Origin: an uncultured Thermoleophilia bacterium
Lineage (GTDB): Bacteria; Actinomycetota; Thermoleophilia; UBA2241
DNA length: 64,000 nucleotides
NCBI GenBank assembly: GCA_963791345.1
Contig: CAWBRS010000002.1
Span: 22,707 to 86,706 of the forward strand
Reading direction: 5' to 3'
Below the pieces are notes generated by a model. That model had not been told where the DNA came from, did no database searches, and worked only from the letters and a program-made list of their open reading frames with translations. A program made the translations under genes and the position numbers. The first letter of the stretch is position 1; every line of letters begins with the position of its first letter. Below, in pieces: positions 17,101 to 31,912 of this stretch.

Positions 17101-17971
17101 GCCGCGTCGAGCGGCCCGCAGTCGAGCGTCCAGTCGTCGGTCGGCGTCGTGTGCAGCGAGAGACTGCAGGACGAGCGGTCGGCGGCGAGCTCGTAGCTGA
17201 AGTCGCCGACCGCGTCCGACTGGGTCATGGGGCCGTGGTTCCAGGGGTTGCTCGGCCACAGGGCGCCGTCGCGCAGAGCCCCGACGCCGCCTTCGCGCGA
17301 CACCTGGGAGGCGGGAGGGTAGAGGCCGTCGTGCCGCCGGGCCCACTCGATCACGTACTGGCGGATCAGCGAGAGCCCTTCCTGCTCGCGATGGCGGTAC
17401 GCCAGCCGGCCCGAGCCGGGCATCGAGCCCCTCACCTCGAACTCGCCGTCGGGCAGGTGGCCGACCAGGCGATAGCTCCGGCGGTCGGCCGCCACGGTGT
17501 AGGTGTAGCGGCCCGGAGATGTGCCGGGGCGCATGGCTTTGCCGGTCCACGGGTCCGCCGGCCAGAGCGGCGCGTGGAGCCCGCCGCTCTTGCGCACCAT
17601 GTCGGCCGCGGGGTAGCTGTAGTAGCGCTCCAGGGCGTAGGTCTCGATGTAGCCCTGCAGGAGCAGCAGGCGCTCCCGCATCGAGTCGCTCCTCGGTGAC
17701 GACGGCCGGCCTCGCCGAGGGGTCGAGGCTCGGCTCGGGCTCGCCGGACGGCCCGGCCGGTGCCTTCCGGGCTCGGCGCGGCGCTCCCGGCGGCGCCCGG
17801 CTCATCCCCGCCGCAGCCGCTCGCCGTCACGGCGATCAGCAGCCCGGCGACCAGCAGGAGGCCGGCGGCGAGGAGTCGTGCCCGGCGGCCCGCGCGCCGC
17901 GGCGCACCACGCGACGCGTCGCTCCTGCGCGGCGGCGCCAGACCTCGCCGGGCGGCCGTGCTGCGCTGCAT
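17079..17971 (-). CDS. Lipoprotein with two tandem pilin/GspG-like globular domains; frameshifted
   Basis: Lipobox ASGC; two repeats of YP...LWPxxPWxxxxM....G.Y.Y...AD. Confidence 0.6.
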
Positions 17972-18162
17972 GTGTCCCTCCCTCGGGCCCCGGGTCCGTG
18001 TCGTCGCGCAGTCTGCGACGGGCATCGCACGCGGTCAAGCCGGCCGCGCGCGGGCGGTTCGCGCCCGGGTCCGGGCGGGGCCCGTCGGCGTCGCCGTCCG
18101 GCCGTGGAGAGCCGCCCTTCCCTCGGGCGACGCCGGACACCACCGAGCGCCGTCGCCGCCGG

Positions 18163-18200
18163 CATGTCCAATTGCGCAGGATGATGTTCAATTGGGCATG
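18163..18200. promoter_or_regulatory. Inverted repeat (putative operator) upstream of mtbB
   Basis: CATGTCCAATTG-N14-CAATTGGGCATG, 11/12 complementary, AT-rich relative to surroundings. Confidence 0.55.
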
Positions 18201-18248
18201 ATCGCGCGACCCCCGGGTCGCACCCCCCGCGAGCGTGAGGTGACGCCG

Positions 18249-19635
18249 GTGGAGCCGAGGATCCCGACCCGCATGGGCGACGGGTTCATGGTCGAGAGGA
18301 CCCGTAGCGAGCTGCGCGCCGACATCGAGGCGGCGACGGCCGAGGCGGCGCGCAAGGCGAAGTGCCCGCCGCTCGCCGCCGGCGAGCTCGACCACCTGCT
18401 CGACATCTACGCCTCGCCCGCGTCGTTCACCGCCGTCGACATCGGCGACCAGGTCGTCCTCTCCTGCGACGGCGGCGGCAGCAAGATGACCGGCACCGAC
18501 CTCCAGGACCTCCTCGAGAGCGAGCAGCGCCTCGGCCAGGACATCCTCGAGCTCTGGCACATCGAGTACAGCTACAAGGCCATCAAGACGATCCTGCCGT
18601 TCCAGCAGCAGCTCATGCAGAACGCCCAACTCATGCTCACCGCGCCGATCCAGTACGGGGCGCAGCCCAACCTGGCCTTCTACTCGAAGCCCGACGGCCC
18701 TGCCGACAACTGGTTCGAGCTGCTGCCGCAGGGCCGCATCGCCGAAGCCAAGGCGGCCATCGAAGAGGCGATGGAGCACGCGACCAAGGACTTCATCTAC
18801 GTGAGCGACGGCATGATGGAGGCCGGCGCCGACGGCATGGACTTCGACACCACCGGCGGCGCCGGCGACGCCGACCTCTTCAGCACGCTGCGCGCGGTGA
18901 AGCACGTGCGCGAGAGGTGGCCGGAGGCGGGCATCGAGGTCGGCATGGCCGGCGAGTTCGTGATCGGCGTGCACGGCGAGCTCGCGTGGGAGGGCCGCCG
19001 GCTCGCCGGCATGTGGCCCAAGGACCAGCTCGAGGTCGCCCAGGACGCGGGGGCGACGCTCTTCGGCCCGGCGGTGAACATCCGCACCTCGAAGAGCTGC
19101 GCCTGGAACGCCGCCTTCTCCCTCACCGTGATGAAGCCGTGCATGGAGGCGGCGCGCATCCCCGTCCATCCCAACGTCGGGCAGGGCGTGTGCGGCGTGC
19201 CGGTCAACGGCTACCCCGGGGAGGACGCCTCGTCGCGGGCGGCCAAGGCCTGCGTCGAGATCCTGCGCTGCGACGGGTTGTAGGTGGGCTCGGGTGACTC
19301 CAGGGGCATGGACGTCACCCACGCGCTCGCCGCCGGCATGGGCGGGATCCGGACGGCCGGAGATCTGGTGGCCCGGATGCAGATGTCGCGGGGCATGCGC
19401 CTGAACGGAGGCGAAGGAGTACGTCGCGGGGAAGCTGGGCTGCGGGGTGCGCGACCTGAGCGACAGCTACGCCATGGAGCAGCTCAGGGGCGAGCTCGGT
19501 CTGGGGAGGATCCTCGACCACTCGAACCTGCACCCCGGCGAGCCGAACGCGATGTACGCCAAGTTCCGTATCGCCGAGCTGCTCGGGCTGCGCATCAACT
19601 CGGTCGAACGATTCAAGGACCTGGCCGGTCTCTGA
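18249..19635 (+). CDS. mtbB: Dimethylamine:corrinoid methyltransferase MtbB homolog with in-frame amber (pyrrolysine) codon at 19281-19283; +1 frameshift near 19408
   Basis: TRMGDG, YGAQPN..YSKPDGP, GADGMDFDTTGGAGDAD, GMAGEF, FGPAVN; DGL-(TAG)-VGSGD corresponds to MtbB DGI-Pyl-IGVGD; homology continues AGMGGIRTAGDLVARMQ...EAKEYVAGKLG...INSV. Confidence 0.9.
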
Positions 19636-19742
19636 CGATACAGGGTTCGGTGGGGCGGCCGGCGGCGGGGGCCACGGTCGCCCCGCCGATCAGCCGCGCA
19701 CCGCCGTTGCGGCGGGCGTGGGGTGGACTGACCGGAGGCCGG

Positions 19743-20161
19743 ATGATGCGCGCGAAGTCGTTCGATCGACGCCGGCCGTGCGCGGTCGCTGCCGGCGGTC
19801 GCGGCGCTGGTCGCGGCGCTCGCCCTCTCCGCCGCCTGCCTCATCTGCGCTTGCGCCGGGGAGGCCGCCGAGCCGGTCACGGCGCCGGTCGACCAGGCGA
19901 AGGATCTCGCGGCGAAGGCCGCCGTGCTGGCGATCGCGACCGGCGTCAAGGCGCACGTCGCGACGTCCGGCGAGGCGCCGGCGGACGCGAGCCAAGCCAC
20001 GCTCGGCGCCTTCGTGAGCCCCTGGCCCGACAACCCCTTCACGGGCGCCCCGATGGCGCCCGGCTCGAACCCCGGCGACTACGTCTACGACGGCGCTCGG
20101 CGACGGGGCCTACGAGCTCTCCGTGTACCTCTCCGACGGGACGCTGTCGCCGGCTCCGTGA
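19743..20161 (+). CDS. Small lipoprotein with pilin/GspG-like domain; frameshifted
   Basis: Hydrophobic Cys-containing leader; AVLAIATGVKAH...WPDNPFTGAPMAPGSNPGDYVY...YELSVYLSDG. Confidence 0.55.
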
Positions 20162-20290
20162 CGGGCACCGCCCGCGGCCGCCTCGGCGGGCGCCGCCCTG
20201 CCGCTGCGTGATCGGCGCCGCCCCGCGGCGCCTCAGCGGCCCCCGCCCTGCCGCTCCGTGATCGCGCCGCTCGCGGCGCCTCAGCGGCGC
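20150..20290. repeat. ~48-bp degenerate tandem repeat (3 units) beginning at gene stop
   Basis: Recurring GCT(C/G)CGTGA...GCCGC...GCGG(C)GCCTC(A/G)GCGG. Confidence 0.5.
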
Positions 20291-24084: not shown

Positions 24085-24100
24085 TCATGGCGTTGAGCAG

Positions 24101-24190
24101 CTCTAACCAGCGCATCGAGCTGATTGGCCCGCAGCGTAAGATGAGGCGCAACGCGCAGCGAGCCAACAGCTCATGCGCACCACGTTGATG
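24101..24190 (+). repeat. attC site 1
   Basis: CTCTAAC-CAGCGC-ATCGAGCTG...CAGCTCAT-GCGCACCAC-GTTGATG; R''/L''/L'/R' layout with extrahelical base. Confidence 0.8.
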
Positions 24191-25201: not shown

Positions 25202-25288
25202 GTCCAACCAGTGCATCAACCTGACGCGCCCACGCGCCGAGATATCCTTCAACGGCGCGGCGCGCAGGTTATGCACGCCACGTTAGGC
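25202..25288 (+). repeat. attC site 3
   Basis: GTCCAAC-CAGTGCATCAACCTG...CAGGTTATGCAC-GCCAC-GTTAGGC. Confidence 0.85.
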
Positions 25289-25316: not shown

Positions 25317-25760
25317 ATGGTGAGCACGCGTATCGTCTCTCTTCCACTCGTTCTCCTCGCCGCCGCGCTCGCCGCCGCCTCTCTCCTGGGCGGCTGCGGC
25401 GATGAGGCGACCGCGGGCGAGGGAGCCGAAGCGTCGTCGTCACCGGCGCCCGCCTGGCTCGCTTCAGAGGCGGCGGCGCAGGCGGAGCGTCTCGGCGATC
25501 CTGCGCCGGAGGCCGCCTTCTGGCGCTACGACCCCACCCACGACAGCTACACCATCGTGCTCATCGGCGAGTTCGACACGGCTCACTCTATCCGCGACGG
25601 CGCCCTCCTCAGCCCTAGCGGGGCATCCGAGATCACCGTCGAGCCGAGCCGCTGGGTGCTGTTCACCTACAGTGGCCCGCACGCGGTCGAGGTGTTCGGC
25701 TGCGGGCCCCGTGAGTCCGACGGCCTGGCCCTTCCGGGCCTCCAGCCTCTCGATCTGTGA
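25317..25760 (+). CDS. Cassette 4: hypothetical lipoprotein
   Basis: Signal peptide with lipobox LLGGC. Confidence 0.65.
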   Translation: MVSTRIVSLPLVLLAAALAAASLLGGCGDEATAGEGAEASSSPAPAWLASEAAAQAERLGDPAPEAAFWRYDPTHDSYTIVLIGEFDTAHSIRDGALLSPSGASEITVEPSRWVLFTYSGPHAVEVFGCGPRESDGLALPGLQPLDL

Positions 25761-25819
25761 GCGGGCGTAGGTTTGAGGCGCTGCGCCTAACAAGCGCATC
25801 TTAGTGTCACTCTTCCCGC

Positions 25820-26010
25820 GGGATGCCTGACCAGAGTCAGGTAGCCTCGGCCCCGACGGCGGAGTGACCCAAAGCGCATCTGTCGCCCTTTCGGGCTGAC
25901 CGTCTGCTCTTCTGTCCCCCGCCGCCGGGAGCCGAGGGGTCGCCGACGTGACCTGATAGGAGCCTGGCCAAGAGGCCCCAGCTAAGGCGTGTCCGCCGGC
26001 GGTCCCCGCT
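25820..26010 (+). ncRNA. Predicted bridge RNA of the IS110 element
   Basis: 5' hairpin plus two internal loops; guides AAGCGCAT (25872-79) and GTCTGCTCT (25902-10) match attC; ATAGGAGC (25956-63) and CTAAG (25982-86) match element ends. Confidence 0.75.
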
Positions 26011-26039
26011 CGCACCGGTCGCAGCCGAGCAAGGGGGAC

Positions 26040-27090
26040 ATGCAGGTGATCGTAATCGGGATCGACCCGCACATGAAGAGCCACACCGCCGTGGCGCTCG
26101 ACGCCGCCAGCGGTCGCAGCCTCGGGCAGACGATCATCGCCAGCGACGCCGCCGGCTGCGCGGCGCTGATCGCCTGGGCGCGCCGCCTCGGAGATGAGCG
26201 CTGCTTCGCCATCGAGGACTGCCGCCACGTCTCCGGTCGCCTCGAGCGTCACCTGCTGCCCCACGGCGAGCGCCTCGTGCGCGTGCCGCCCAAGCTGATG
26301 GCCAAGGCGCGCGCCTCGGCGCGCACCTACGGCAAGTCGGACCCGATCGACGCCGAGTGCGTGGCCCGCGCGGCGCTGCGCGCAGCCGCACCTGCCCGAG
26401 GCGCGCCTCGCCGGACCCGAGGCCGACGTGCGCCTGCTCGCCGACCACCGCGACGACCTCGTCGGCGAGCGCCAGCGCGCTGCAGACTGCGCCTGCGCTG
26501 GCACCTCCACGACCTCGAGCTCGACCTCGCGCTGCCGCCGCGGGCGCTCGACCGCTACGTCTGGCTCGATCGCGTCGAGGCGTCCCTGCGCGCCCTGCCC
26601 GCGGGCACGCGCGTCCGCATCGCCCTCGAGCTCGTCGGCCGCTGCCGCGAGCTGACCCGCGAGGTGCGCGCCCTCGAGCGCGAGATCGGCGCGCTCATGC
26701 GCGCCCTCGCCCCCGAGCTGCTCGCGCTGCCCGGCTGCTCGGCGCTCTAGCGCGCGCAGCTCGTCGGTCAGGTGGCCGGCGCCGCGCGCTTCCGAAGCGA
26801 GGCCGCCTTCGCCATGCACACGGGCACCGCCCCGCTGCGCGGTCTCCTCGGGCAAGTCGCAGCGCCACCGCCTCAACCGCTGCGGCAACCGGCGCCTCAA
26901 CTCGGTCATCCACATGATCGCCGTGACGCAGGCGCGCATGCACCCGCCGGCGATCGCCTACCTGGCGCGCAAGCGCGCCCAGGGCATGAGCACGCGCGAG
27001 GCGCTGCGCTGCCTCAAGCGGCACATCGCGCGGACCGTGTTCAGGACCATGCGCCGGGCGGAGCTGGGCCGGCTGGCGGTATGCTGTTGA
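26040..27090 (+). CDS. IS110-family transposase/recombinase (frameshifts and one internal stop)
   Basis: IGIDPHMKSHTAV, AIED, GKSDPIDA (DEDD RuvC-like); HTGTAP..SSG..RHRLNRCGNRRLN; ALRCLKRH. Confidence 0.9.
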
Positions 27091-27207
27091 CATAGGAGCA
27101 AGAGCTGATTGGCCCGGGGCGTAAGATGACGCCGGAAGCGCAGCGAGCCAACAGCTCACGCGCACCACGTTCGGTGGGACGGCTGCATGGTCACGAGCGA
27201 GGATGTG

Positions 27208-28164
27208 ATGGCTCAACAGACAACAATGAAAGCGGTTGCGTGCCCCAAGTACGGGCCGCCGGAGGTGCTCAGACTCGTCGAAGTCCCTGTTCCGTCACCG
27301 ACGCCTGAACAGGTTCGGATTCGAATCCACGCGGCCGGCGTAACGATGAGCGACATCTTCATCCGCTCGGCGCGCGTCACTCCGCTGCTCCAAATCCCGT
27401 TTCGACTCATGATGGGAATCACGAAGCCGCGCGCGCCGGTCGTTGGCTTTGTATTCTCTGGCGTGATCGAACAGATCGGTGCGAGAATCACCCGCTTCAA
27501 ACTCGGTGACGAGGTCTTCTGCACGACCGGCTTCTCGCTCGGCGCGTATGCGGAGTACCGCTGCATGGCGGAAACCGACTCGAGGAACCATGGCTGTTTG
27601 GCGCTCAAGCCCCACAACCTCACCCACGAGGAAGCGACTGCGGCAGCGTATGGTGGATTGCTCGCCCTGCAGTACAGCGACAAGGGCAGCATAGAAGCGG
27701 GTGACGAAGTCCTGATCTACGGCGCCTCCGGTACGTCAGGTACGATCGCTGTTCAATACGCCAAGCACCTGGGTGCGCGCGTCACCGGCGTGTGTGGCCC
27801 TCACAACGTCGATCTCGTCAGATCACTCGGCGCCGACGAGATCATCGACTACACCAAGAGCGATGCCCCGCCCTCGGGCGCGCACTATGATTTCGTGCTG
27901 GACTCGGTCGGCGGTGTGAAGTCCTCTCCACTCAAGAAGGCCGTCAGAAGAGCTCTCAAACCGGGCGGCTCGTACGTCTCGATCGACGACGGCGACATGC
28001 TACTGGAGTCCGCGCGCTTGGATCAGATTCGTGAGCTCGTTGAGAGCAAGGCGATCACGCCGGTCCTCGGTCACACGTTCCCCATCGAGGAGATCGTCGA
28101 AGCGCACCGGTTGGTTGAATCCGGTCACAAACGCGGGGGTGTGGCAGTCACGATCGCGGGGTAG
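27208..28164 (+). CDS. Cassette 5: NAD(P)-dependent medium-chain dehydrogenase/reductase (quinone-reductase-like)
   Basis: YGPPEVL, GAYAEY, VLIYGASGTSG, LGADEIIDY, GHKRGGV; atypical lower-GC codon usage. Confidence 0.88.
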   Translation: MAQQTTMKAVACPKYGPPEVLRLVEVPVPSPTPEQVRIRIHAAGVTMSDIFIRSARVTPLLQIPFRLMMGITKPRAPVVGFVFSGVIEQIGARITRFKLGDEVFCTTGFSLGAYAEYRCMAETDSRNHGCLALKPHNLTHEEATAAAYGGLLALQYSDKGSIEAGDEVLIYGASGTSGTIAVQYAKHLGARVTGVCGPHNVDLVRSLGADEIIDYTKSDAPPSGAHYDFVLDSVGGVKSSPLKKAVRRALKPGGSYVSIDDGDMLLESARLDQIRELVESKAITPVLGHTFPIEEIVEAHRLVESGHKRGGVAVTIAG

Positions 28165-28242: not shown

Positions 28243-28332
28243 ACCGAACAAGTGCATCGAGCAGACCGGCGCCGAAGGTATGCTGAGCTCCGCCGGCTGC
28301 GAGGCCGGCAGCTCATGCACATCACGTTCGCC
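28243..28332 (+). repeat. attC site 5
   Basis: ACCGAAC-AAGTGCATCGAGCAG...CAGCTCATGCAC-ATCAC-GTTCGCC. Confidence 0.8.
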
Positions 28333-28401: not shown

Positions 28402-28644
28402 ATGACGACCATCAGCGCCACCGAGGCACGCAGACACCTCTACCAGCTCCTCGACGACGTGGCACGCTCGCACGAGCCGGTGCAGATCACCGGCAAGCGC
28501 GGCAACGCCGTGCTCGTCTCAGAGGACGACTGGCGTGCCGTGCAGGAGACGCTCTACCTCGTCTCGATCCCCGGTATGCGTGAGTCCATCCTCGAGGGCA
28601 TGGCGACGCCCGCCGCTGAGCTCGAAGACGAGCTCGACTGGTGA
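28402..28644 (+). CDS. yefM: Phd/YefM antitoxin
   Basis: ATEARRHLYQLLD, PVQITGKRGNAVLVSE, ETLYL. Confidence 0.92.
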   Translation: MTTISATEARRHLYQLLDDVARSHEPVQITGKRGNAVLVSEDDWRAVQETLYLVSIPGMRESILEGMATPAAELEDELDW

Positions 28645-28904
28645 GCTGGCGGCTGCTCTACACGAAGCAGGCGCGCAAGGACGCGAGGAAGCTCGCCGCG
28701 GCGGGTCTCAAGCCCAAGGCGCAGGAGCTGCTTGCGATCCTCGAGGCCGATCCGTTCCAATCGCCGCCGCCGTTCGAGAAGCTCGTCGGCGACCTCAGCG
28801 GCGCCTACTCGCGGCGCATCAACATCCAGCATCGCCTCGTGTATCAGGTAGTCGTCGACGAGCGTATCGTCAAGGTGCTCAGGATGTGGACCCATTACGG
28901 GTGA
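28641..28904 (+). CDS. yoeB: Txe/YoeB toxin
   Basis: FEKLVGDLSGAYSRRINIQHRLVY, RMWTHY; GTGA overlap with antitoxin. Confidence 0.92.
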   Translation: MSWRLLYTKQARKDARKLAAAGLKPKAQELLAILEADPFQSPPPFEKLVGDLSGAYSRRINIQHRLVYQVVVDERIVKVLRMWTHYG

Positions 28905-28907
28905 GGC

Positions 28908-29279
28908 TGAGTTCAAGTTCGAACCGCAACACCTGCGCTTCTGACGCTCTCTCCTACCGGGCTTGTACATAGCACTCCTCCGGGGTCCTGTAGCCCAAGC
29001 GTTTCCGCGGTCGTGTGTTGAGCTTCGCCGCGATCGCGTCGCAGTCGGCCTGGGTGACGTGGGCCATGCTCCGGCGTTTGGGCAGGTACTGGCGCAGGAG
29101 GCCGTTCGTGTTCTCGTACGTGCCCCGCTCCCAGGCGTGGTGCGGGGTCGCGAAGTAGAACAGCGTCCCGGTCTCGGCCTCGATCTCGGCGTAGCTGTGG
29201 AACTCGGAGCCGTTGTCGGCGGTCACGGTGGCCACGCGCCCCAGGTGGCGGTGTGAGTTCAAGTTCGAAGTGCAACACC
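28908..29279 (-). mobile_element. IS30-family remnant (3' transposase fragment between two direct copies of a terminal sequence)
   Basis: TVTADNGSEF, FATPHHAWERGTYENTNGLLRQYLPK, LNTRPRKRLGYRTP; 26-bp direct repeats at 28908 and 29254. Confidence 0.85.
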
Positions 29280-29304
29280 GGCGCCCCCGTCGCGCCTCCG
29301 TGTC

Positions 29305-30681
29305 TCAGGCGCCGATCAGCTTCTTGATCAGGTCGGCGCGGCGCGTCGGGCGACCCTTCGACTCCTCGCTCTTGTCGGCGCTGGCCATCATCTGCAGGGC
29401 GAGGTTGATGCCGAGCCAGCGCAGGGGCTCGGGCTCCCAGAGGGGCGACTTGTGGCCGACCCAGGGCAGCGCGGTGAGCTCCGTGGTGGCGCCGGTGATG
29501 AGGTCGCGCAGCGTGCGCCCGGCGAGGTTGGTCGTCGACACGCCGTCGCCCACGTAGCCGCCGGCCCAGGCCATGCCCGCGGCGCGGTCGAGGCCGACCG
29601 AGCCGTACCAGTCGCGCGGCACGCCGATGGCTCCGCCCCAGCGGTGGGTGACACGGAAGTCGCCGACCTGCGGGAAGAGGGTGTGGATCAGGCGGCGCAG
29701 GTGCTCGTGCACGGCGTCGTTCACGATGTAGCCCTCGTCGAGCTTGGAGTCGTAGTGGTAGGGCGCCCCGCGGCCGCCGATGGCGATGCGGCCGTCCTCG
29801 GTGTGGCAGGCGTAGAAGATCAGGTGGCGCATGTCGCCGAAGACCTCGTGCTTCTTCCACCCGAGGCGCTCCCAGGTCTCGTCGGAGAGCGGCTCGGTCG
29901 CGATCATCAGCGAGTAGAGCGGCACGAGCTGGCGCTCGTAGCCGGGGAGCTCGGGGGTGAAGGCCTCGGTCGCGCGCACGACGACCTCGGCCTTGACCGT
30001 GCCGAACGGCGTCTCGGCGGCGTGCGGGGCGAGGGCGGTGACCGGCGTGCGCTCGTAGATCGGCACGCCGAGCTTCTCGACGACGTCGGCGAGGCCGCGG
30101 GCCAGGCGCGCCGGGTCGACGGCGGCGCCGTGCGTGCAGAGCACGGCGCCGAGGCAGCCGGCGACCTTGAGGCGCTCGCGCGTCTCGGCGGCGCCGAGCA
30201 TGACGTAGTCGTCCTCGCCGAAGCTCCAGGAGCGCTGGTACTCGAGCTCCTGGGCGAGGCGCAGCAGCTGCACGGGGTTGTTCGCGAGGTCGAGCTGGCC
30301 GTCGAGGTGGAAGCGGGCGTCGATCTGCTCGTCGGCGACGACGCGCTCGATCTCGTAGACGGTGTCGAAGAGGGCGCGCTGCTGGGCGACGACCGCGTCG
30401 CGCCCGTGGGTCTTGGCGGCGCGCTCGCGCGAGCCGGGGAAGGTGGTGTGGCACCAGCCGCCGTTGCGCCCCGAGCCTCCGTAGCCGGCGATCTCGCGCT
30501 CGAGGACGCAGACGCGCAGCTTGGGGTCGGCCTTCTTCAGGTAGTAGGCCGTCCAGAGGCCGGTGTAGCCGGCGCCGACGATGGCGACGTCGACCTCGGC
30601 GGCGCCGGGCAGGGAGGGCCGCGGGGTGAGCTCGCCGGGGACGCCGTCGAGCCACAGGCTGCGGGAGCGGTAGTCGGTCAC
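29305..30681 (-). CDS. FAD-dependent oxidoreductase (DAO family, PuuB/OrdL-like amine oxidase)
   Basis: VGAGYTGLWTA, GGSGRNGG, WGGAIGVPRD, GYVGDGVS, WEPEPLRW. Confidence 0.85.
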   Translation of the reverse strand: MTDYRSRSLWLDGVPGELTPRPSLPGAAEVDVAIVGAGYTGLWTAYYLKKADPKLRVCVLEREIAGYGGSGRNGGWCHTTFPGSRERAAKTHGRDAVVAQQRALFDTVYEIERVVADEQIDARFHLDGQLDLANNPVQLLRLAQELEYQRSWSFGEDDYVMLGAAETRERLKVAGCLGAVLCTHGAAVDPARLARGLADVVEKLGVPIYERTPVTALAPHAAETPFGTVKAEVVVRATEAFTPELPGYERQLVPLYSLMIATEPLSDETWERLGWKKHEVFGDMRHLIFYACHTEDGRIAIGGRGAPYHYDSKLDEGYIVNDAVHEHLRRLIHTLFPQVGDFRVTHRWGGAIGVPRDWYGSVGLDRAAGMAWAGGYVGDGVSTTNLAGRTLRDLITGATTELTALPWVGHKSPLWEPEPLRWLGINLALQMMASADKSEESKGRPTRRADLIKKLIGA

Positions 30682-30877
30682 GGGACCCTCCTCGGGGCGC
30701 GCGGTGATGTGCCTTCGCGAATCCTACACCGGCGCCGAGCCTGCGCGGGGCGCCTGAGACGCGGCGCGAGCGCCGGCGCAGCGCTTGAGCGCCGCCGTGC
30801 CGCGGATCGGCGGCGGCGTGCGGCGTGTCGGCGCGATCGGGGCTGACGGCGGCGGGCCGACGCATCAGAATGCCGGC

Positions 30878-31912
30878 ATGTGGTACGAGCGGCTGCTCGA
30901 GAGGGAGGTCGTCCCCGACGCGGTGACCCGGCGGGCCGTACGCCTGCGCCTCGCCCGCCTGCTGGCACGGCTCGAGCGGGAGGCCGGCGGCGACGCGGAG
31001 GCGCAGCTCCGCCGCGTCGCCGCCGGCCTCCGTCGCGAGCCCATCGCCGTGCACGTCGACGACGCCAACCGGCAGCACTACGAGCTGCCGACGGCCTTCT
31101 TCGCCGAGTTCCTCGGCCCCCGGCTCAAGTACTCGTGCTGCCTCTGGCCGCCGGGCGTCGACGACCTCGCCGCGGCCGAGGAGGCGATGCTCGCCCTGAC
31201 CTGCGCGCGCGCCGGGCTCGAGGACGGCATGACCGTCCTCGACCTCGGCTGCGGCTGGGGCTCGCTCGCCCTCTACGCCGCCGAGCGCTTCCCGGGCTCA
31301 CGGGTGCGGGCGGTGTCGAACTCGGGCTCGCAGGGCGAGCACGTCCGCGCCGAGGCGGCGCGGCGGGGGCTCGCCAACGTCACCGTCGACACCGCCGACG
31401 TGAGCACCTACGCGCCCGGGGCGCGCTTCGACCGCGTCGTCTCGATCGAGATGTTCGAGCACGTGCGCAACTATGCGCGCGCCTTCGCCCGGGTGCGCGA
31501 CTGGCTCACGCCGGACGGGCGCCTCTTCGTCCACGTCTTCAGCCACCGGCGGCACGCGTACCTCTTCGGGGACGGCCCGGAGGACTGGATGGGGCGCACG
31601 TTCTTCAGCGGGGGCACGATGCCGGCTCACGATCTCTTCCTCGAGTTCCAGGACGACCTCGAGGTCGTCGACCGCTGGCTCGTCGACGGCCGAGAGTACG
31701 CGCGCACTCTCGAGGACTGGCTGCGGCGCTTCGACGCCCGCGCGGCCCGCATCGACCCGATCCTCGCCGCGACCTACGGGCCCGACGCGGTGCGGCGGTG
31801 GCGCGTGAACTGGCGGCTCTTCTTCATCGCCTGCGCCGAGACCTTCGCCTACGCGGACGGGCAGGAGTGGGCCGTCTCGCACTACCTGTTCGCGCCGCGC
31901 GCCGCGGGCTGA
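30878..31912 (+). CDS. SAM-dependent methyltransferase (cyclopropane-fatty-acyl synthase family)
   Basis: ANRQHYELP, LKYSCC, LDLGCGWGS, VSIEMFEHVRNY, FFSGGTMP. Confidence 0.88.
   Translation: MWYERLLEREVVPDAVTRRAVRLRLARLLARLEREAGGDAEAQLRRVAAGLRREPIAVHVDDANRQHYELPTAFFAEFLGPRLKYSCCLWPPGVDDLAAAEEAMLALTCARAGLEDGMTVLDLGCGWGSLALYAAERFPGSRVRAVSNSGSQGEHVRAEAARRGLANVTVDTADVSTYAPGARFDRVVSIEMFEHVRNYARAFARVRDWLTPDGRLFVHVFSHRRHAYLFGDGPEDWMGRTFFSGGTMPAHDLFLEFQDDLEVVDRWLVDGREYARTLEDWLRRFDARAARIDPILAATYGPDAVRRWRVNWRLFFIACAETFAYADGQEWAVSHYLFAPRAAG

What the first reader, a model, noticed from the sequence alone, without database searches (positions are those of the whole stretch)
25800..27100. IS110 element whose bridge RNA is programmed against integron attC sites
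Seen: the element interrupts attC4. Its upstream non-coding end folds into a 5' hairpin (CCTGAC-CAGA-GTCAGG) and two stem-internal-loop domains. Loop 1 carries AAGCGCAT (25872-79), identical to the target left flank (25792-99). It also carries GTCTGCTCT (25902-10), whose reverse complement AGAGCAGAC matches the right flank AGAGCTGAT and attC5 CGAGCAGAC. Loop 2 carries ATAGGAGC (25956-63), identical to the element right end (27092-99), and CTAAG (25982-86), complementary to the left end CTTAG. Established: IS110 recombinases use bispecific bridge RNAs, and the attC-targeting elements I know of belong to the IS1111 group with a downstream non-coding end. Inference: this is an upstream-NCR (IS110-group) element that targets a conserved attC arm in an actinobacterium-like host, and intact attC1 and attC5 are further targets.
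Basis: partly seen in the sequence, partly recalled or inferred. Interest (0 to 1): 0.9.

Follow-up and report, generated by a model that had tools for sequence, protein, structure and literature searches.

The report
Bridge-RNA insertion sequence that targets integron attC
A decayed copy of an RNA-guided jumping gene sits exactly at the unpaired-base position of an integron recombination site, and its many relatives show that a whole branch of this family is programmed by its guide RNA to hit such sites.

Summary
Window 25801-27101 (1301 bp) is an IS110-group element: a 239-nt upstream non-coding end, then a DEDD/Transposase_20 recombinase gene. It splits an integron attC site between C25800 and G27102, beside the base that is extrahelical in the folded bottom strand. 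An intact paralogue in the same genome and seven metagenome contigs read straight across this point.

The non-coding end folds as a bridge RNA: a 5' hairpin and two stem/internal-loop/hairpin domains. Across about 20 genomic and 57 metagenomic relatives the scaffold is conserved and the loop blocks change with the flanks. Fifty-three of the 57 metagenomic copies lie at the same attC position. Relatives with other guides lie in other repeats.

Corrections:
- The window copy is broken as assembled (three indels, one in-frame TAG), so it is probably a relic. 18 of 20 full-length metagenomic copies have a long open frame.
- Donor and target share no core dinucleotide.
- Better-matching intact attC sites exist, including one outside the window.

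The host genus carries titles naming Thermoleophilia, and the genome has an integron integrase. My literature searches found attC targeting only for IS1111-group elements.

The parts
25785..25800 (+). Left arm of the interrupted attC: R'' box GCCTAAC (25785-91), the 8-nt left target AAGCGCAT (25792-99), and C25800, the complement of the extrahelical G of the bottom strand.
   Evidence: The intact paralogue at C2:178196 reads AACAAGCGCATC|GAGCTGATTGGCCCGGGG.
25801..27101 (+). The inserted IS110-group element, 1301 bp, TTAGTGTCA...TTGACATAGGAGCAA, with no target duplication in this copy.
   Evidence: Comparison with intact attC sites. Seven metagenome contigs join ..AACAAGCGCATC directly to 27102. 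Ends aligned with relatives.
25801..26039 (+). Left non-coding end, the bridge-RNA template.
   Evidence: Fold z = -2.7. On a 15-sequence alignment, 45 scaffold pairs are 91.5% paired, against 32-49% when the partners are slid. Eight pairs show compensatory changes.
25805..25809 (+). Left subterminal inverted repeat TGTCA. Its partner is TGACA at 27088-92.
   Evidence: the longest inverted match between the first and last 40 nt. A short repeat of this kind is described for the IS110 group in PMC11208160.
25826..25841 (+). 5' hairpin CCTGAC-CAGA-GTCAGG.
   Evidence: Helix 1 is 83% paired, with UA changing to CG at one pair.
25872..25881 (+). Left target guide AAGCGCAT plus CT, on the 5' side of internal loop 1. 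It is identical to the top strand of the left flank, so it would pair with the bottom strand.
   Evidence: This 8-nt block changes with the flank in relatives.
25882..25900 (+). Inner hairpin of the target-binding domain (GTCGCCC-TTTC-GGGCTGAC).
   Evidence: helix 4: 99% paired, 2 pairs with compensatory change.
25901..25911 (+). Right target guide CGTCTGCTCTT, on the 3' side of loop 1. Its reverse complement AAGAGCAGACG compares with the right junction AAGAGCTGATT.
   Evidence: Own flank matches at 8 of 10. The twin copy L017 matches at 9 of 10 and L019 at 10 of 10.
25956..25965 (+). Left donor guide ATAGGAGC plus CT, on the 5' side of loop 2. It is identical to the right end at 27092-99.
   Evidence: Both the guide and the right end are nearly invariant in relatives, so the support is identity, not covariation.
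25966..25977 (+). Inner hairpin of the donor-binding domain (GGCC-AAGA-GGCC).
   Evidence: helix 6: 93% paired.
25982..25987 (+). Right donor guide CTAAGG, on the 3' side of loop 2. It is complementary to the left end TTAG plus the two bases before it.
   Evidence: Covaries with the left end: CTAA with TTAG, CCAA with TTGG, CTGA with TCAG. RNAalifold itself paired these columns (UA 13/CG 2; GC 8/AU 7).
26040..27090 (+). Recombinase gene (DEDD RuvC-like N-terminal domain, Transposase_20 C-terminal domain), broken as assembled. Relative to an intact relative (L197, 91.9% identical in DNA over the element), it has one extra base at 26383, two at 26481-82 and one at 26837, plus an in-frame TAG at 26748-50. 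The stop codon TGA is at 27088-90.
27087..27101 (+). Right end: TTGACA (contains the right inverted repeat TGACA), the 8 nt matched by the donor guide (27092-99), and the terminal AA (27100-01) that is complementary to the UU at the 3' end of the right target guide.
   Evidence: AA in 33 of the 36 full-length copies tabulated in these two calls (some places appear twice). The exceptions are AG in L051, GT in L044 and TA in L179; L051 also carries the matching change in its guide.
27102..27175 (+). Right arm of the interrupted attC: GAGCTGATTGG ... CACGCGCACCAC, then the R' box GTTCGGT (27169-75).
   Evidence: Bases 1-70 are 94% identical to the intact site at C2:178208-178277.
24101..24190 (+). 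Intact attC of the same type (CTCTAAC CAGCGCATC GAGCTGATT ... GTTGATG).
   Evidence: The bottom strand folds into a hairpin with two bulged bases, T and G (z = -3.9).
25202..25288 (+). Intact attC of a second type (GTCCAAC CAGTGCATC AACCTGAC ... GTTAGGC).
   Evidence: (z = -5.3).
28243..28332 (+). Intact attC (ACCGAAC AAGTGCATC GAGCAGAC ... GTTCGCC). Of the three intact sites scored in the window, it matches the element's guides best: 8/9 plus 8/8.

Best explanation
The window holds a relic copy of an IS110-group insertion sequence whose clade is aimed by its own bridge RNA at integron attC sites.

Proposed mechanism:
- The 239-nt left end is transcribed into an RNA with a 5' hairpin and two stem/internal-loop/hairpin domains.
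[quoted passage not shown] Eight to ten bases on the 3' side pair with the top strand just beyond the unpaired C.
- In loop 2, the 5' side pairs with the element's right end (ATAGGAGC) and the 3' side with its left end (TTAG).
- The DEDD/serine recombinase then joins the circularised element into the site without a target duplication.
- The insertion point is next to the base that is extrahelical in the folded bottom strand. The IS therefore separates the two arms of attC and should make that site useless to the integron integrase.

Shown here: the anatomy, the target, the guide/flank and guide/end covariation, the conserved position and orientation, and intact relatives.

Inferred from IS621 and ISEc21 work: that the RNA is made, that it binds the recombinase, that a circle forms, and the strand-exchange chemistry.

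This copy has lost its reading frame as assembled and is most likely inactive.
For: Recombinase family and architecture:
- Pfam hits and reading frames.
- A distant but significant match to the solved IS621 recombinase (E = 2.6e-4).
- The nearest annotated plasmid genes are named IS110 family transposase.

Insertion point:
- Twelve of 12 intact attC sites scored on contig C2 read ..CATC followed by GAGC, AACC or AGCC, with nothing between.
- The paralogue at C2:178196 is identical over the left 9 nt and 94% identical over 70 nt on the right.
- Seven metagenome contigs read across the point.

Genuine attC:
- R''/R' boxes are present.
- The bottom strand forms a hairpin with bulged T and G.
- Sites of the same family lie 2-10 kb from an integron integrase that scores 478.7 bits against a cut-off of 265.
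- A YefM/YoeB cassette lies in the array.

Bridge RNA:
- Scaffold is 91.5% paired, against 32-49% with slid partners; 8 pairs show compensatory changes.
- Left guide matches the left flank at 53 of 56 positions; 1 of 5040 permutations reaches this.
- Right guide matches at 31 of 40 positions; 1 of 120 permutations.
- Within the attC clade, 244 of 288 positions match; 0 of 10000 shuffles reach this.
- The right donor guide covaries with the left end in three states.

Target class:
- Thirteen genomic copies or fragments of the attC type lie at the same position in different attC sites.
- 53 of 57 metagenomic copies have AAC 9-11 nt before the left end.

Natural retargeting: relatives with guides TTGGGTTG, ATACTGCG, CATCCTGC and others lie in matching non-attC sequence.

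Living relatives: 18 of 20 full-length metagenomic copies have an open frame of at least 361 aa. One of them, L197, is 91.9% identical to the window copy and carries the same guides.

Geometry of the guides agrees with PMC11208160. Insertion without duplication agrees with ISEc21 in PMC11187229.
Against: - No RNA data. No RNA run is listed for this stretch, so expression of the non-coding end is inferred.
- The left donor guide and the right end are nearly invariant, so that pairing rests on an 8/8 identity, not on covariation.
- The defining shared core dinucleotide of IS621-type bridge recombination is not found. The left junctions carry C, CG, CC or CA. The right junctions carry AA, rarely AG, GT or TA.
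- Bases 9-10 of both 5' guides (mostly CT) do not track the DNA.
- The window copy's right guide matches its own flank at only 6 of 8 positions beyond AA.
- Some copies match worse: L021 and L022 at 6/8 on the left, and L048 at 3/10 on the right in fixed register, where a 1-nt offset restores the match.
- The left junction comes in two forms that differ by one base (8+1 or 8+2 nt between AAC-proximal guide match and the element). I cannot explain this.
- Copies within related hosts are not independent, so the shuffle statistics overstate significance.
- The structure I tested was derived from these same sequences.
- The recombinase gene is broken here and in 5 further same-family genomic copies (L017, L018, L019, L020, L036).
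- Only 17 of the 26 full-length attC-type copies passed my strict test for the far arm of attC, and 3 of those 17 at an implausibly short distance.
Confidence: 0.85

Rival explanations
1. Targeting is set mainly by the protein reading the attC hairpin or its extrahelical base. The RNA complementarity would be secondary, or a by-product of repeated residence in attC sites.
For: - Position and orientation are extremely uniform: 53 of 57 copies.
- The insertion point sits at a structural landmark, the bulged G.
- An IS110 element with a target stem-loop acting as a second specificity layer has been reported (bioRxiv 10.64898/2026.03.19.712850; abstract read).
Against: - Guides covary with target variants inside the attC clade.
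- Relatives with the same scaffold but other guides sit in other sequences that lack the AAC box.
- A purely protein-read target would not need loop blocks that track the flank.
- A dual requirement, RNA match plus structure, remains quite possible. It is compatible with the main explanation.
Confidence: 0.1
2. The frameshifts and the stop codon in the window copy are assembly errors, and the copy is in fact active.
For: - The genome has few contigs, and same-genus records look like long-read assemblies.
- Several same-family copies also show frameshifts, whereas 18 of 20 full-length copies from other metagenome assemblies are open.
Against: - Neighbouring genes in the window have long uninterrupted frames with full-length Pfam matches: ADH 325 aa, FAD oxidoreductase 458 aa, HtrA 393 aa.
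- Three indels and a nonsense codon within 1 kb contrast with this.
- The indels are not in homopolymer runs.
- The TAG needs substitutions.
- The only other copy in the genome is a 100-nt stump.
Confidence: 0.12
3. The flanking repeats are not integron attC sites but another family of palindromic repeats (REP- or MITE-like). The element would then be an ordinary repeat-targeting IS110.
For: The window array has no integrase beside it. It is flanked by an HtrA-like protease gene and an FAD oxidoreductase gene.
Against: - RYYYAAC and GTTRRRY boxes are present.
- The sites are imperfect palindromes with two bulged bases on the bottom strand.
- Most spacers inspected hold a plus-strand ORF; one holds the two-gene YefM/YoeB pair.
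- The same repeat family lies next to a bona fide integron integrase on contig C21.
- The cassette downstream of the insertion has no counterpart in 20 relatives searched, as expected for cassettes.
Confidence: 0.03

Closest known systems
IS621 and IS110-group bridge-RNA elements (Durrant et al. 2024, PMC11208160; Hiraizumi et al. 2024, PMC11208158; passages read)
   Same: - Upstream non-coding end that encodes an RNA with two internal loops.
- In each loop the 5' side matches the top strand (so pairs with the bottom strand) and the 3' side pairs with the top strand.
- Loop 1 reads the target and loop 2 reads the element ends.
- Short subterminal inverted repeat around the donor sequence.
- DEDD plus serine recombinase.
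   Different: - The protein is only distantly related (E = 2.6e-4, C-terminal domain only) and longer (about 347-359 aa).
- The left guides are 8 nt.
- No CT core is shared between donor and target.
- The bases next to the right guides are complementary to the partner DNA (AA of the element; C-C or T-C of the target). This resembles the handshake guides of IS621, moved onto the core positions.
- The target is an integron attC site.
ISEc21 cluster of the IS110 family (Siddiquee et al. 2024, PMC11187229; passages read)
   Same: - Upstream non-coding end.
- Recombinase of intermediate length (ISEc21: 358 aa; here 359 aa in L021).
- Insertion without duplication of target bases.
- The bottom-strand guide comes before the top-strand guide.
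- Natural retargeting among relatives.
   Different: - ISEc21 targets a linear site inside IS3-family transposase genes, not a structured attC.
- I did not compare the sequences directly, so membership of that cluster is not tested.
IS1111-attC group (ISPa21, ISKpn4, ISPst6 and others; Tetu & Holmes 2008; Post & Hall 2009). Known to me from citations and from recall. The Tetu & Holmes paper is not in the library; I did not try Post & Hall.
   Same: - DEDD-recombinase insertion sequences that insert in one orientation at a fixed place in one end of integron attC sites.
- Guided by an RNA from the non-coding end (shown for ISKpn4 and ISPst6 in PMC11187229).
   Different: - Those elements carry the non-coding end downstream of the gene, have long subterminal inverted repeats, and have the opposite guide order.
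- They occur in Proteobacteria and clinical integrons.
- Whether they cut the same arm and position of attC I could not check.
ISPpu10, an IS110 element with a sequence-structure dual match (bioRxiv 10.64898/2026.03.19.712850; abstract read)
   Same: An IS110-group element whose natural targets are copies of a repeat that forms a stem-loop.
   Different: Its target is an intergenic repeat of Pseudomonas putida, not attC. A role for target structure is untested here.

Membership tests
IS110 family (DEDD recombinase insertion sequences) | N-terminal DEDD RuvC-like domain and C-terminal Transposase_20 domain | tested here: met
   PF01548 at 8.9e-13 on 26040-26375 and PF02371 at 3e-6 on 26848-27087. 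The motifs IDPH, EDCRH, KSDPIDA and SSGKS can be read.
IS110 group (as opposed to IS1111 group) | Long non-coding end upstream of the gene and a short right end | tested here: met
   239 nt lie upstream (25801-26039) and 11 nt follow the stop codon (27091-27101).
IS110 group (as opposed to IS1111 group) | No long (7-17 bp) subterminal inverted repeats | tested here: met
   The longest inverted match between the first and last 40 nt is 5 bp, TGTCA/TGACA.
IS110 group (as opposed to IS1111 group) | The guide complementary to the bottom strand precedes the guide complementary to the top strand | tested here: met
   25872-79 is identical to the top strand of the left flank. [quoted passage not shown] The rule is taken from PMC11187229.
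Bridge RNA (IS621 type) | Two stem/internal-loop domains conserved in structure | tested here: met
   45 pairs, 91.5% paired against 32-49% with slid partners, 8 pairs with compensatory change. The structure was derived from the same sequences.
Bridge RNA (IS621 type) | Loop 1 covaries with the target flanks | tested here: met
   figures are given under the observation check.
Bridge RNA (IS621 type) | Loop 2 matches and covaries with the element ends | tested here: inconclusive
   The right donor guide covaries with the left end in three states. The left donor guide and the right end are nearly invariant: an 8/8 identity with no variation to test.
Bridge RNA (IS621 type) | The same core dinucleotide in target and donor, present on both sides of the inserted element | tested here: not met
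   The left junction carries C, CG, CC or CA. The right junction carries AA in 33 of 36 tabulated full-length copies. No duplication occurs in the window copy.
Bridge RNA (IS621 type) | The RNA is expressed and bound by the recombinase, and a circular intermediate forms | not testable with these tools
   No RNA run is listed, and contigs cannot show circles.
Integron attC site | R'' RYYYAAC and R' GTTRRRY boxes around an imperfect palindrome | tested here: met
   The interrupted site has GCCTAAC and GTTCGGT; the latter departs from the consensus at one base.
Integron attC site | The folded bottom strand has extrahelical bases | tested here: met
   The DNA folds of the bottom strands of 24098-24187 and 25202-25288 each leave two single-base bulges on the R''-L'' side, G and T in the first site. 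The 28246-28332 site did not fold cleanly (z = -1.8).
Integron attC site | Association with an integron integrase | tested here: met
   TIGR02249 scores 478.7 bits (cut-off 265) at C21:642954-643895. Three sites of the same family lie 2-10 kb away on the same strand. The window array itself has no integrase.
Integron attC site | Recombined by the integrase | not testable with these tools
   Needs an experiment.

The most novel reading that the evidence does not exclude
This clade performs bridge recombination without a shared core. The donor carries AA(S), where S is G or C, at the place where the target carries C(G). The 3' ends of the two right-hand guides are complementary to the partner molecule rather than to their own DNA: UU to the element's AA, and GG or GA to the target's CC or TC. 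Full pairing would then be reached only after strand exchange, which would drive insertion forward and lift the core-identity constraint. In addition, the one or two unpaired bases of the attC R''-L'' arm would be what lets the element tell that arm from its near-palindromic partner, giving a single orientation.
Probability: 0.3. Interest if true: 0.75.

Novelty: new variant of a known kind. Interest (0 to 1): 0.6.

Why it matters
- It would show that both branches of the IS110 family, with the guide RNA at opposite ends of the element, have independently been programmed against the same structured target, the integron attC site.
- The clade gives a ready-made natural series of guide/target pairs in GC-rich hosts. 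I tabulated 36 distinct pairs, plus retargeted relatives.
- It is an example of bridge-type insertion with no shared core, which bears on the design limits of bridge recombinases.
- A parasite specialised on attC implies that integrons are long-standing residents of these Actinomycetota. A survey of complete genomes found no complete integron in that phylum (PMC9024848).
- Each insertion splits an attC site, so it should lock the neighbouring cassettes together.

Tried and rejected
CT-core model. I first assumed a CT core as in IS621, because both 5' guides end in CT.
- It predicts ..GGAGC-CT-right target at the right junction. All tabulated right junctions read GGAGC followed by AA, AG, GT or TA, not CT.
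- Moving the right end to the CT at 27105-06 fails, because L017 and L023 have no CT there.

TTGACA at 27087-92 as the -35 box of a junction promoter.
- No conserved -10 partner lies at 16-18 nt in the left end.
- The scan found no sigma-70-like promoter in 25600-27300.
- The hexamer is better explained as the right half of the 5-bp inverted repeat.

One-base rule at the junction. I tested whether the base before the left end equals the third base after the right end. By my tally it held in about half of the copies, so I dropped it. The two junction forms remain unexplained. Among copies with the AAC box, 45 of 53 metagenomic and 6 of 13 genomic copies have 8+2 nt. The rest, 8 of 53 and 7 of 13 including the window copy, have 8+1 nt.

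Rfam. Nothing matched the non-coding end at the gathering thresholds. Up to E = 10 there were only chance-level hits.

Expression. No RNA holder is listed for this stretch.

Laid contigs. All four runs hold only small shares of the stretch. The contigs come from related elements and paralogous attC sites. No excision or circle joint was seen, and contigs cannot show one.

Empty site in relatives. No match to the downstream cassette at E <= 1e-20 in the 20 relatives searched.

A 721-aa frame at 28916-31078 (minus strand) was considered as a neighbouring transposase.
- It has no Pfam hit.
- Another frame in that stretch encodes an FAD oxidoreductase.
- The likeness of 28905-29000 to the DNA after the truncated copy L036 marks the end of a syntenic array.

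Rows dropped before counts.
- Of 120 metagenome loci fetched by the pattern, 62 did not match my profile of the non-coding end. I set them aside as chance pattern matches.
- Two of the 59 hits failed my left-end pattern (L124, L163), although both flanks show AAC.
- Only 30 of 57 copies gave a left-guide block with at least 16 nt of flank. The rest are fragments or variants.
- In one search I first chose L017, not the window copy, as right-side representative. One search repeats the test with the window copy.
- Several loci appear to be the same places fetched twice, because their flanks are identical: L017=L043, L018=L115, L036=L050, L021=L041, L023=L047, L037=L049.

Sources I could not use.
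- Supplementary files of the bridge-RNA and seekRNA papers were not consulted. Their tables of elements and targets might already list an attC-targeting IS110-group member.
Full report
WHAT IS THERE

The stretch 25801-27101 is an insertion sequence. It has three parts:
- a 239-nt non-coding left end;
- a recombinase gene, 26040-27090, with Pfam DEDD_Tnp_IS110 (8.9e-13) and Transposase_20 (3e-6);
- an 11-nt right end.

The gene is not intact as assembled. Compared with an intact metagenomic relative that is 91.9% identical and has the same guides (L197), the window copy has one extra base at 26383, two at 26481-82 and one at 26837. It also has an in-frame TAG at 26748-50.

THE INSERTION SITE IS AN attC SITE

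The left flank reads GCCTAAC AAGCGCAT C. The right flank reads GAGCTGATTGG...CACGCGCACCAC GTTCGGT.

Intact sites of the same family show what the site looked like before insertion.
- Intact sites in the window lie at 24101-24190, 25202-25288 and 28243-28332. A second array lies at C2:175835-180969.
- They read RYYYAAC, then 8 nt, then C, then GAGC, AACC or AGCC, and end in GTTRRRY.
- The paralogue at C2:178196 is identical to the left flank over 9 nt and 94% identical to the right flank over 70 nt. It has nothing between C and G.
- Seven contigs from two public metagenome runs also join ..AACAAGCGCATC directly to base 27102.

Folded as single-stranded DNA, the bottom strands of two of the three intact window sites form long hairpins with two single bulged bases on the R''-L'' side, G and T in the 24098-24187 site (z = -3.9 and -5.3). 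The third site did not fold cleanly (z = -1.8). The element sits immediately beside the position of the bulged G.

The genome encodes an integron integrase: TIGR02249 at 478.7 bits against a cut-off of 265, at C21:642954-643895. Three sites of this family lie 2-10 kb from it. The window array itself has no integrase. It lies between an HtrA-like protease gene and an FAD oxidoreductase gene, and it holds a YefM/YoeB cassette.

RELATIVES

A DNA search of 60 related genomes found full or partial copies in several. A protein-pattern scan of named genome contigs gave 80 loci, and 44 of them share the non-coding scaffold. Same-genus records carry titles naming uncultured Thermoleophilia.

A pattern taken from inside the left end, and therefore blind to the flank, was scanned against metagenome contigs.
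- It gave 120 loci.
- 58 of them, with 59 hits, match a profile of the non-coding end.
- 57 hits could be placed.

The window genome has one further copy, a 100-nt left-end stump at C2:181800-181902. It also lies directly after CCCAAC AAACGCAT CG, at the end of the second array.

THE NON-CODING END BEHAVES AS A BRIDGE RNA

The aligned left ends have constant blocks and four variable blocks. I tested a scaffold with these parts:
- a 5' hairpin;
- a stem that closes domain 1;
- domain 1 outer stem, internal loop and inner hairpin;
- domain 2 outer stem, internal loop and inner hairpin.

This scaffold is 91.5% paired over 15 sequences. It is 32-49% paired when the 3' partners are slid by 1-3 columns. 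Eight of its 45 pairs show changes on both sides. The structure was drawn from these same sequences, which favours it.

The variable blocks lie in the two internal loops, in the geometry described for IS621. [quoted passage not shown]

Block 1 (25872-79 here) equals the 8 nt of left flank that follow AAC.
- Seven lineages with different targets give 53 of 56 matches. Only the true pairing among 5040 permutations reaches that.
- Inside the attC-targeting clade, variants such as GCGAAT, GCGGAT, TGGCAT and GGCGT in the flank are mirrored in the guide. The total is 244 of 288 matches, against a shuffled mean of 210 (sd 4.1). None of 10000 shuffles reaches the observed value.

Block 2 (25901-11) is complementary to the right junction.
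- The match is 8 of 10 for the window copy, 9 of 10 for L017, 10 of 10 for L019, and 9 of 10 for L023 and L045.
- The worst case is L048 at 3 of 10, where a 1-nt offset restores the match.
- In the permutation test, 1 of 120 orders reaches the observed score with the window copy as representative.

Block 4 (25982-87) is complementary to the left end and changes with it: CTAA with TTAG, CCAA with TTGG, CTGA with TCAG. RNAalifold paired these columns on its own.

Block 3 (25956-63) equals the last 8 nt before the terminal AA. Both are nearly invariant, so there is identity but no covariation.

TARGET CLASS

- All 13 attC-type genomic copies or fragments lie at the same place and in the same orientation, in attC sites that differ in type and in the neighbouring cassette. 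They are therefore separate events.
- Of the 57 metagenomic copies, 53 have AAC 9-11 nt before the left end.
- Of the 26 full-length attC-type copies, 17 pass a strict test for the far arm: a reverse-complement 6-mer with at most one mismatch, then GTT. Three of these pass at an implausibly short distance and two copies run off their contig.
- Relatives with other guides (TTGGGTTG, ATACTGCG, CATCCTGC, TAGACTGC, AAGAGTCG, TAGGCTCG) lie in matching sequence without the AAC box. One of these targets is itself a repeat occupied six times or more.

The pattern it said would refute the idea was not seen.

JUNCTIONS

The family does not follow the shared-core rule of IS621.
- The right junction is always ..TTGACATAGGAGC plus two bases. 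These are AA in 33 of 36 tabulated full-length copies, AG in L051, GT in L044 and TA in L179. The 3' end of the right target guide is complementary to them; L051 has the matching change.
- The left junction keeps target bases: 8 nt, then CG, CC or CA, then TTAG, TTGG or TCAG. This form holds for 45 of 53 metagenomic copies with the AAC box and 6 of 13 genomic copies. The other form has 8 nt plus C only, in 8 of 53 and 7 of 13, the window copy among them.
- Bases 9-10 of both left-hand guides (mostly CT) do not follow the DNA.
- The two bases after the right donor guide (GG, or GA in L018 and L026) are complementary to the two bases before the left end in L018, L026, L042, L051 and L044. This recalls the handshake guides of IS621, which pair with the partner DNA after strand exchange (PMC11208158). 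ISEc21, an IS110-family element, was reported to insert without duplicating target bases (PMC11187229).
- A 5-bp inverted repeat, TGACA/TGTCA, brackets the donor sequence, as described for the IS110 group.

I cannot explain the one-base difference between the two left-junction forms.

IS THIS COPY ALIVE?

Probably not.
- It has three indels and a stop codon within 1 kb.
- The neighbouring genes are intact.
- The indels are not in homopolymer runs.
- Five further same-family genomic copies are also broken.

The clade itself is alive. L021 (359 aa), L023 and L037 are intact, and 18 of 20 full-length metagenomic copies have an open frame of at least 361 aa. Assembly error cannot be excluded without reads.

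FURTHER TARGETS

Measured against the guide-specified sequence AAGCGCATC | GAGCAGAC:
- the occupied site scores 9/9 plus 6/8;
- three intact sites in the second array score the same;
- the site at 28247 scores 8/9 plus 8/8;
- C2:180915 scores 9/9 plus 7/8;
- the site at 24105 scores 8/9 plus 6/8.

COMPARISON WITH WHAT IS KNOWN

By architecture and guide order, this is an IS110-group element with a bridge RNA. The protein is only distantly similar to IS621. Its nearest annotated relatives on plasmids are Rhodococcus genes named IS110 family transposase, at about 54% identity.

In the papers I could read, attC targeting is attributed to IS1111-group elements with a downstream non-coding end. Three full-text searches found no report of an IS110-group element or a bridge RNA aimed at attC. 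The library holds open-access papers only. Supplements were closed, and the Tetu & Holmes paper was not held.

A survey of complete genomes reported no complete integron in Actinobacteria (PMC9024848). That makes the integrase plus arrays in this genome worth noting.

VERDICT

This is a real feature, correctly read by the first stage. It is a new target-and-architecture combination within a known kind of system, with an unexplained junction rule. The window copy is a relic.

Noticed in passing
window 17760-20258 (+): A dimethylamine methyltransferase gene (Pfam Dimeth_Pyl) runs through an in-frame TAG at 19281-19283. The Pfam profile continues across the TAG. Rfam PYLIS_2 matches 19281-19380 at 58.9 bits (gathering score 36). 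This looks like a pyrrolysine-containing enzyme in an actinobacterial genome.
   Followed up: partly
G000 contig C21:633000-643900 (outside the window): An integron integrase gene (TIGR02249, 478.7 bits, open frame of 354 aa) has at least three attC sites downstream on the same strand. That is the inverted arrangement relative to classical integrons. The genus carries titles naming Thermoleophilia, and a survey of complete genomes found no complete integron in Actinobacteria.
   Followed up: partly
G000 contig C2:175835-181902 (outside the window): A second integrase-less array of at least 10 attC sites. It ends in a 100-nt stump of the same insertion sequence, which is cut off against the 3' end of a long minus-strand ORF that I did not identify.
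   Followed up: partly
window 28402-28901 (+): A YefM antitoxin / YoeB-ParE toxin pair forms the last cassette of the window array.
   Followed up: no
L023, L037, L038 and L071-L073 (two Thermoleophilia-labelled genomes): Retargeted relatives with the guide TTGGGTTG sit in at least six copies of another repeat (..GCGATTTGGGTTGC | GAATGGTTGCAGACGG..). The nature of this repeat is unknown and it lacks the attC AAC box.
   Followed up: no
L036 (G012:C4), compared with window 28905-29000: In a same-genus genome, a copy of the element is truncated at its 3' end. It abuts sequence like the downstream boundary of the window array. The array locus therefore appears to be syntenic across species while its cassettes differ.
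   Followed up: no
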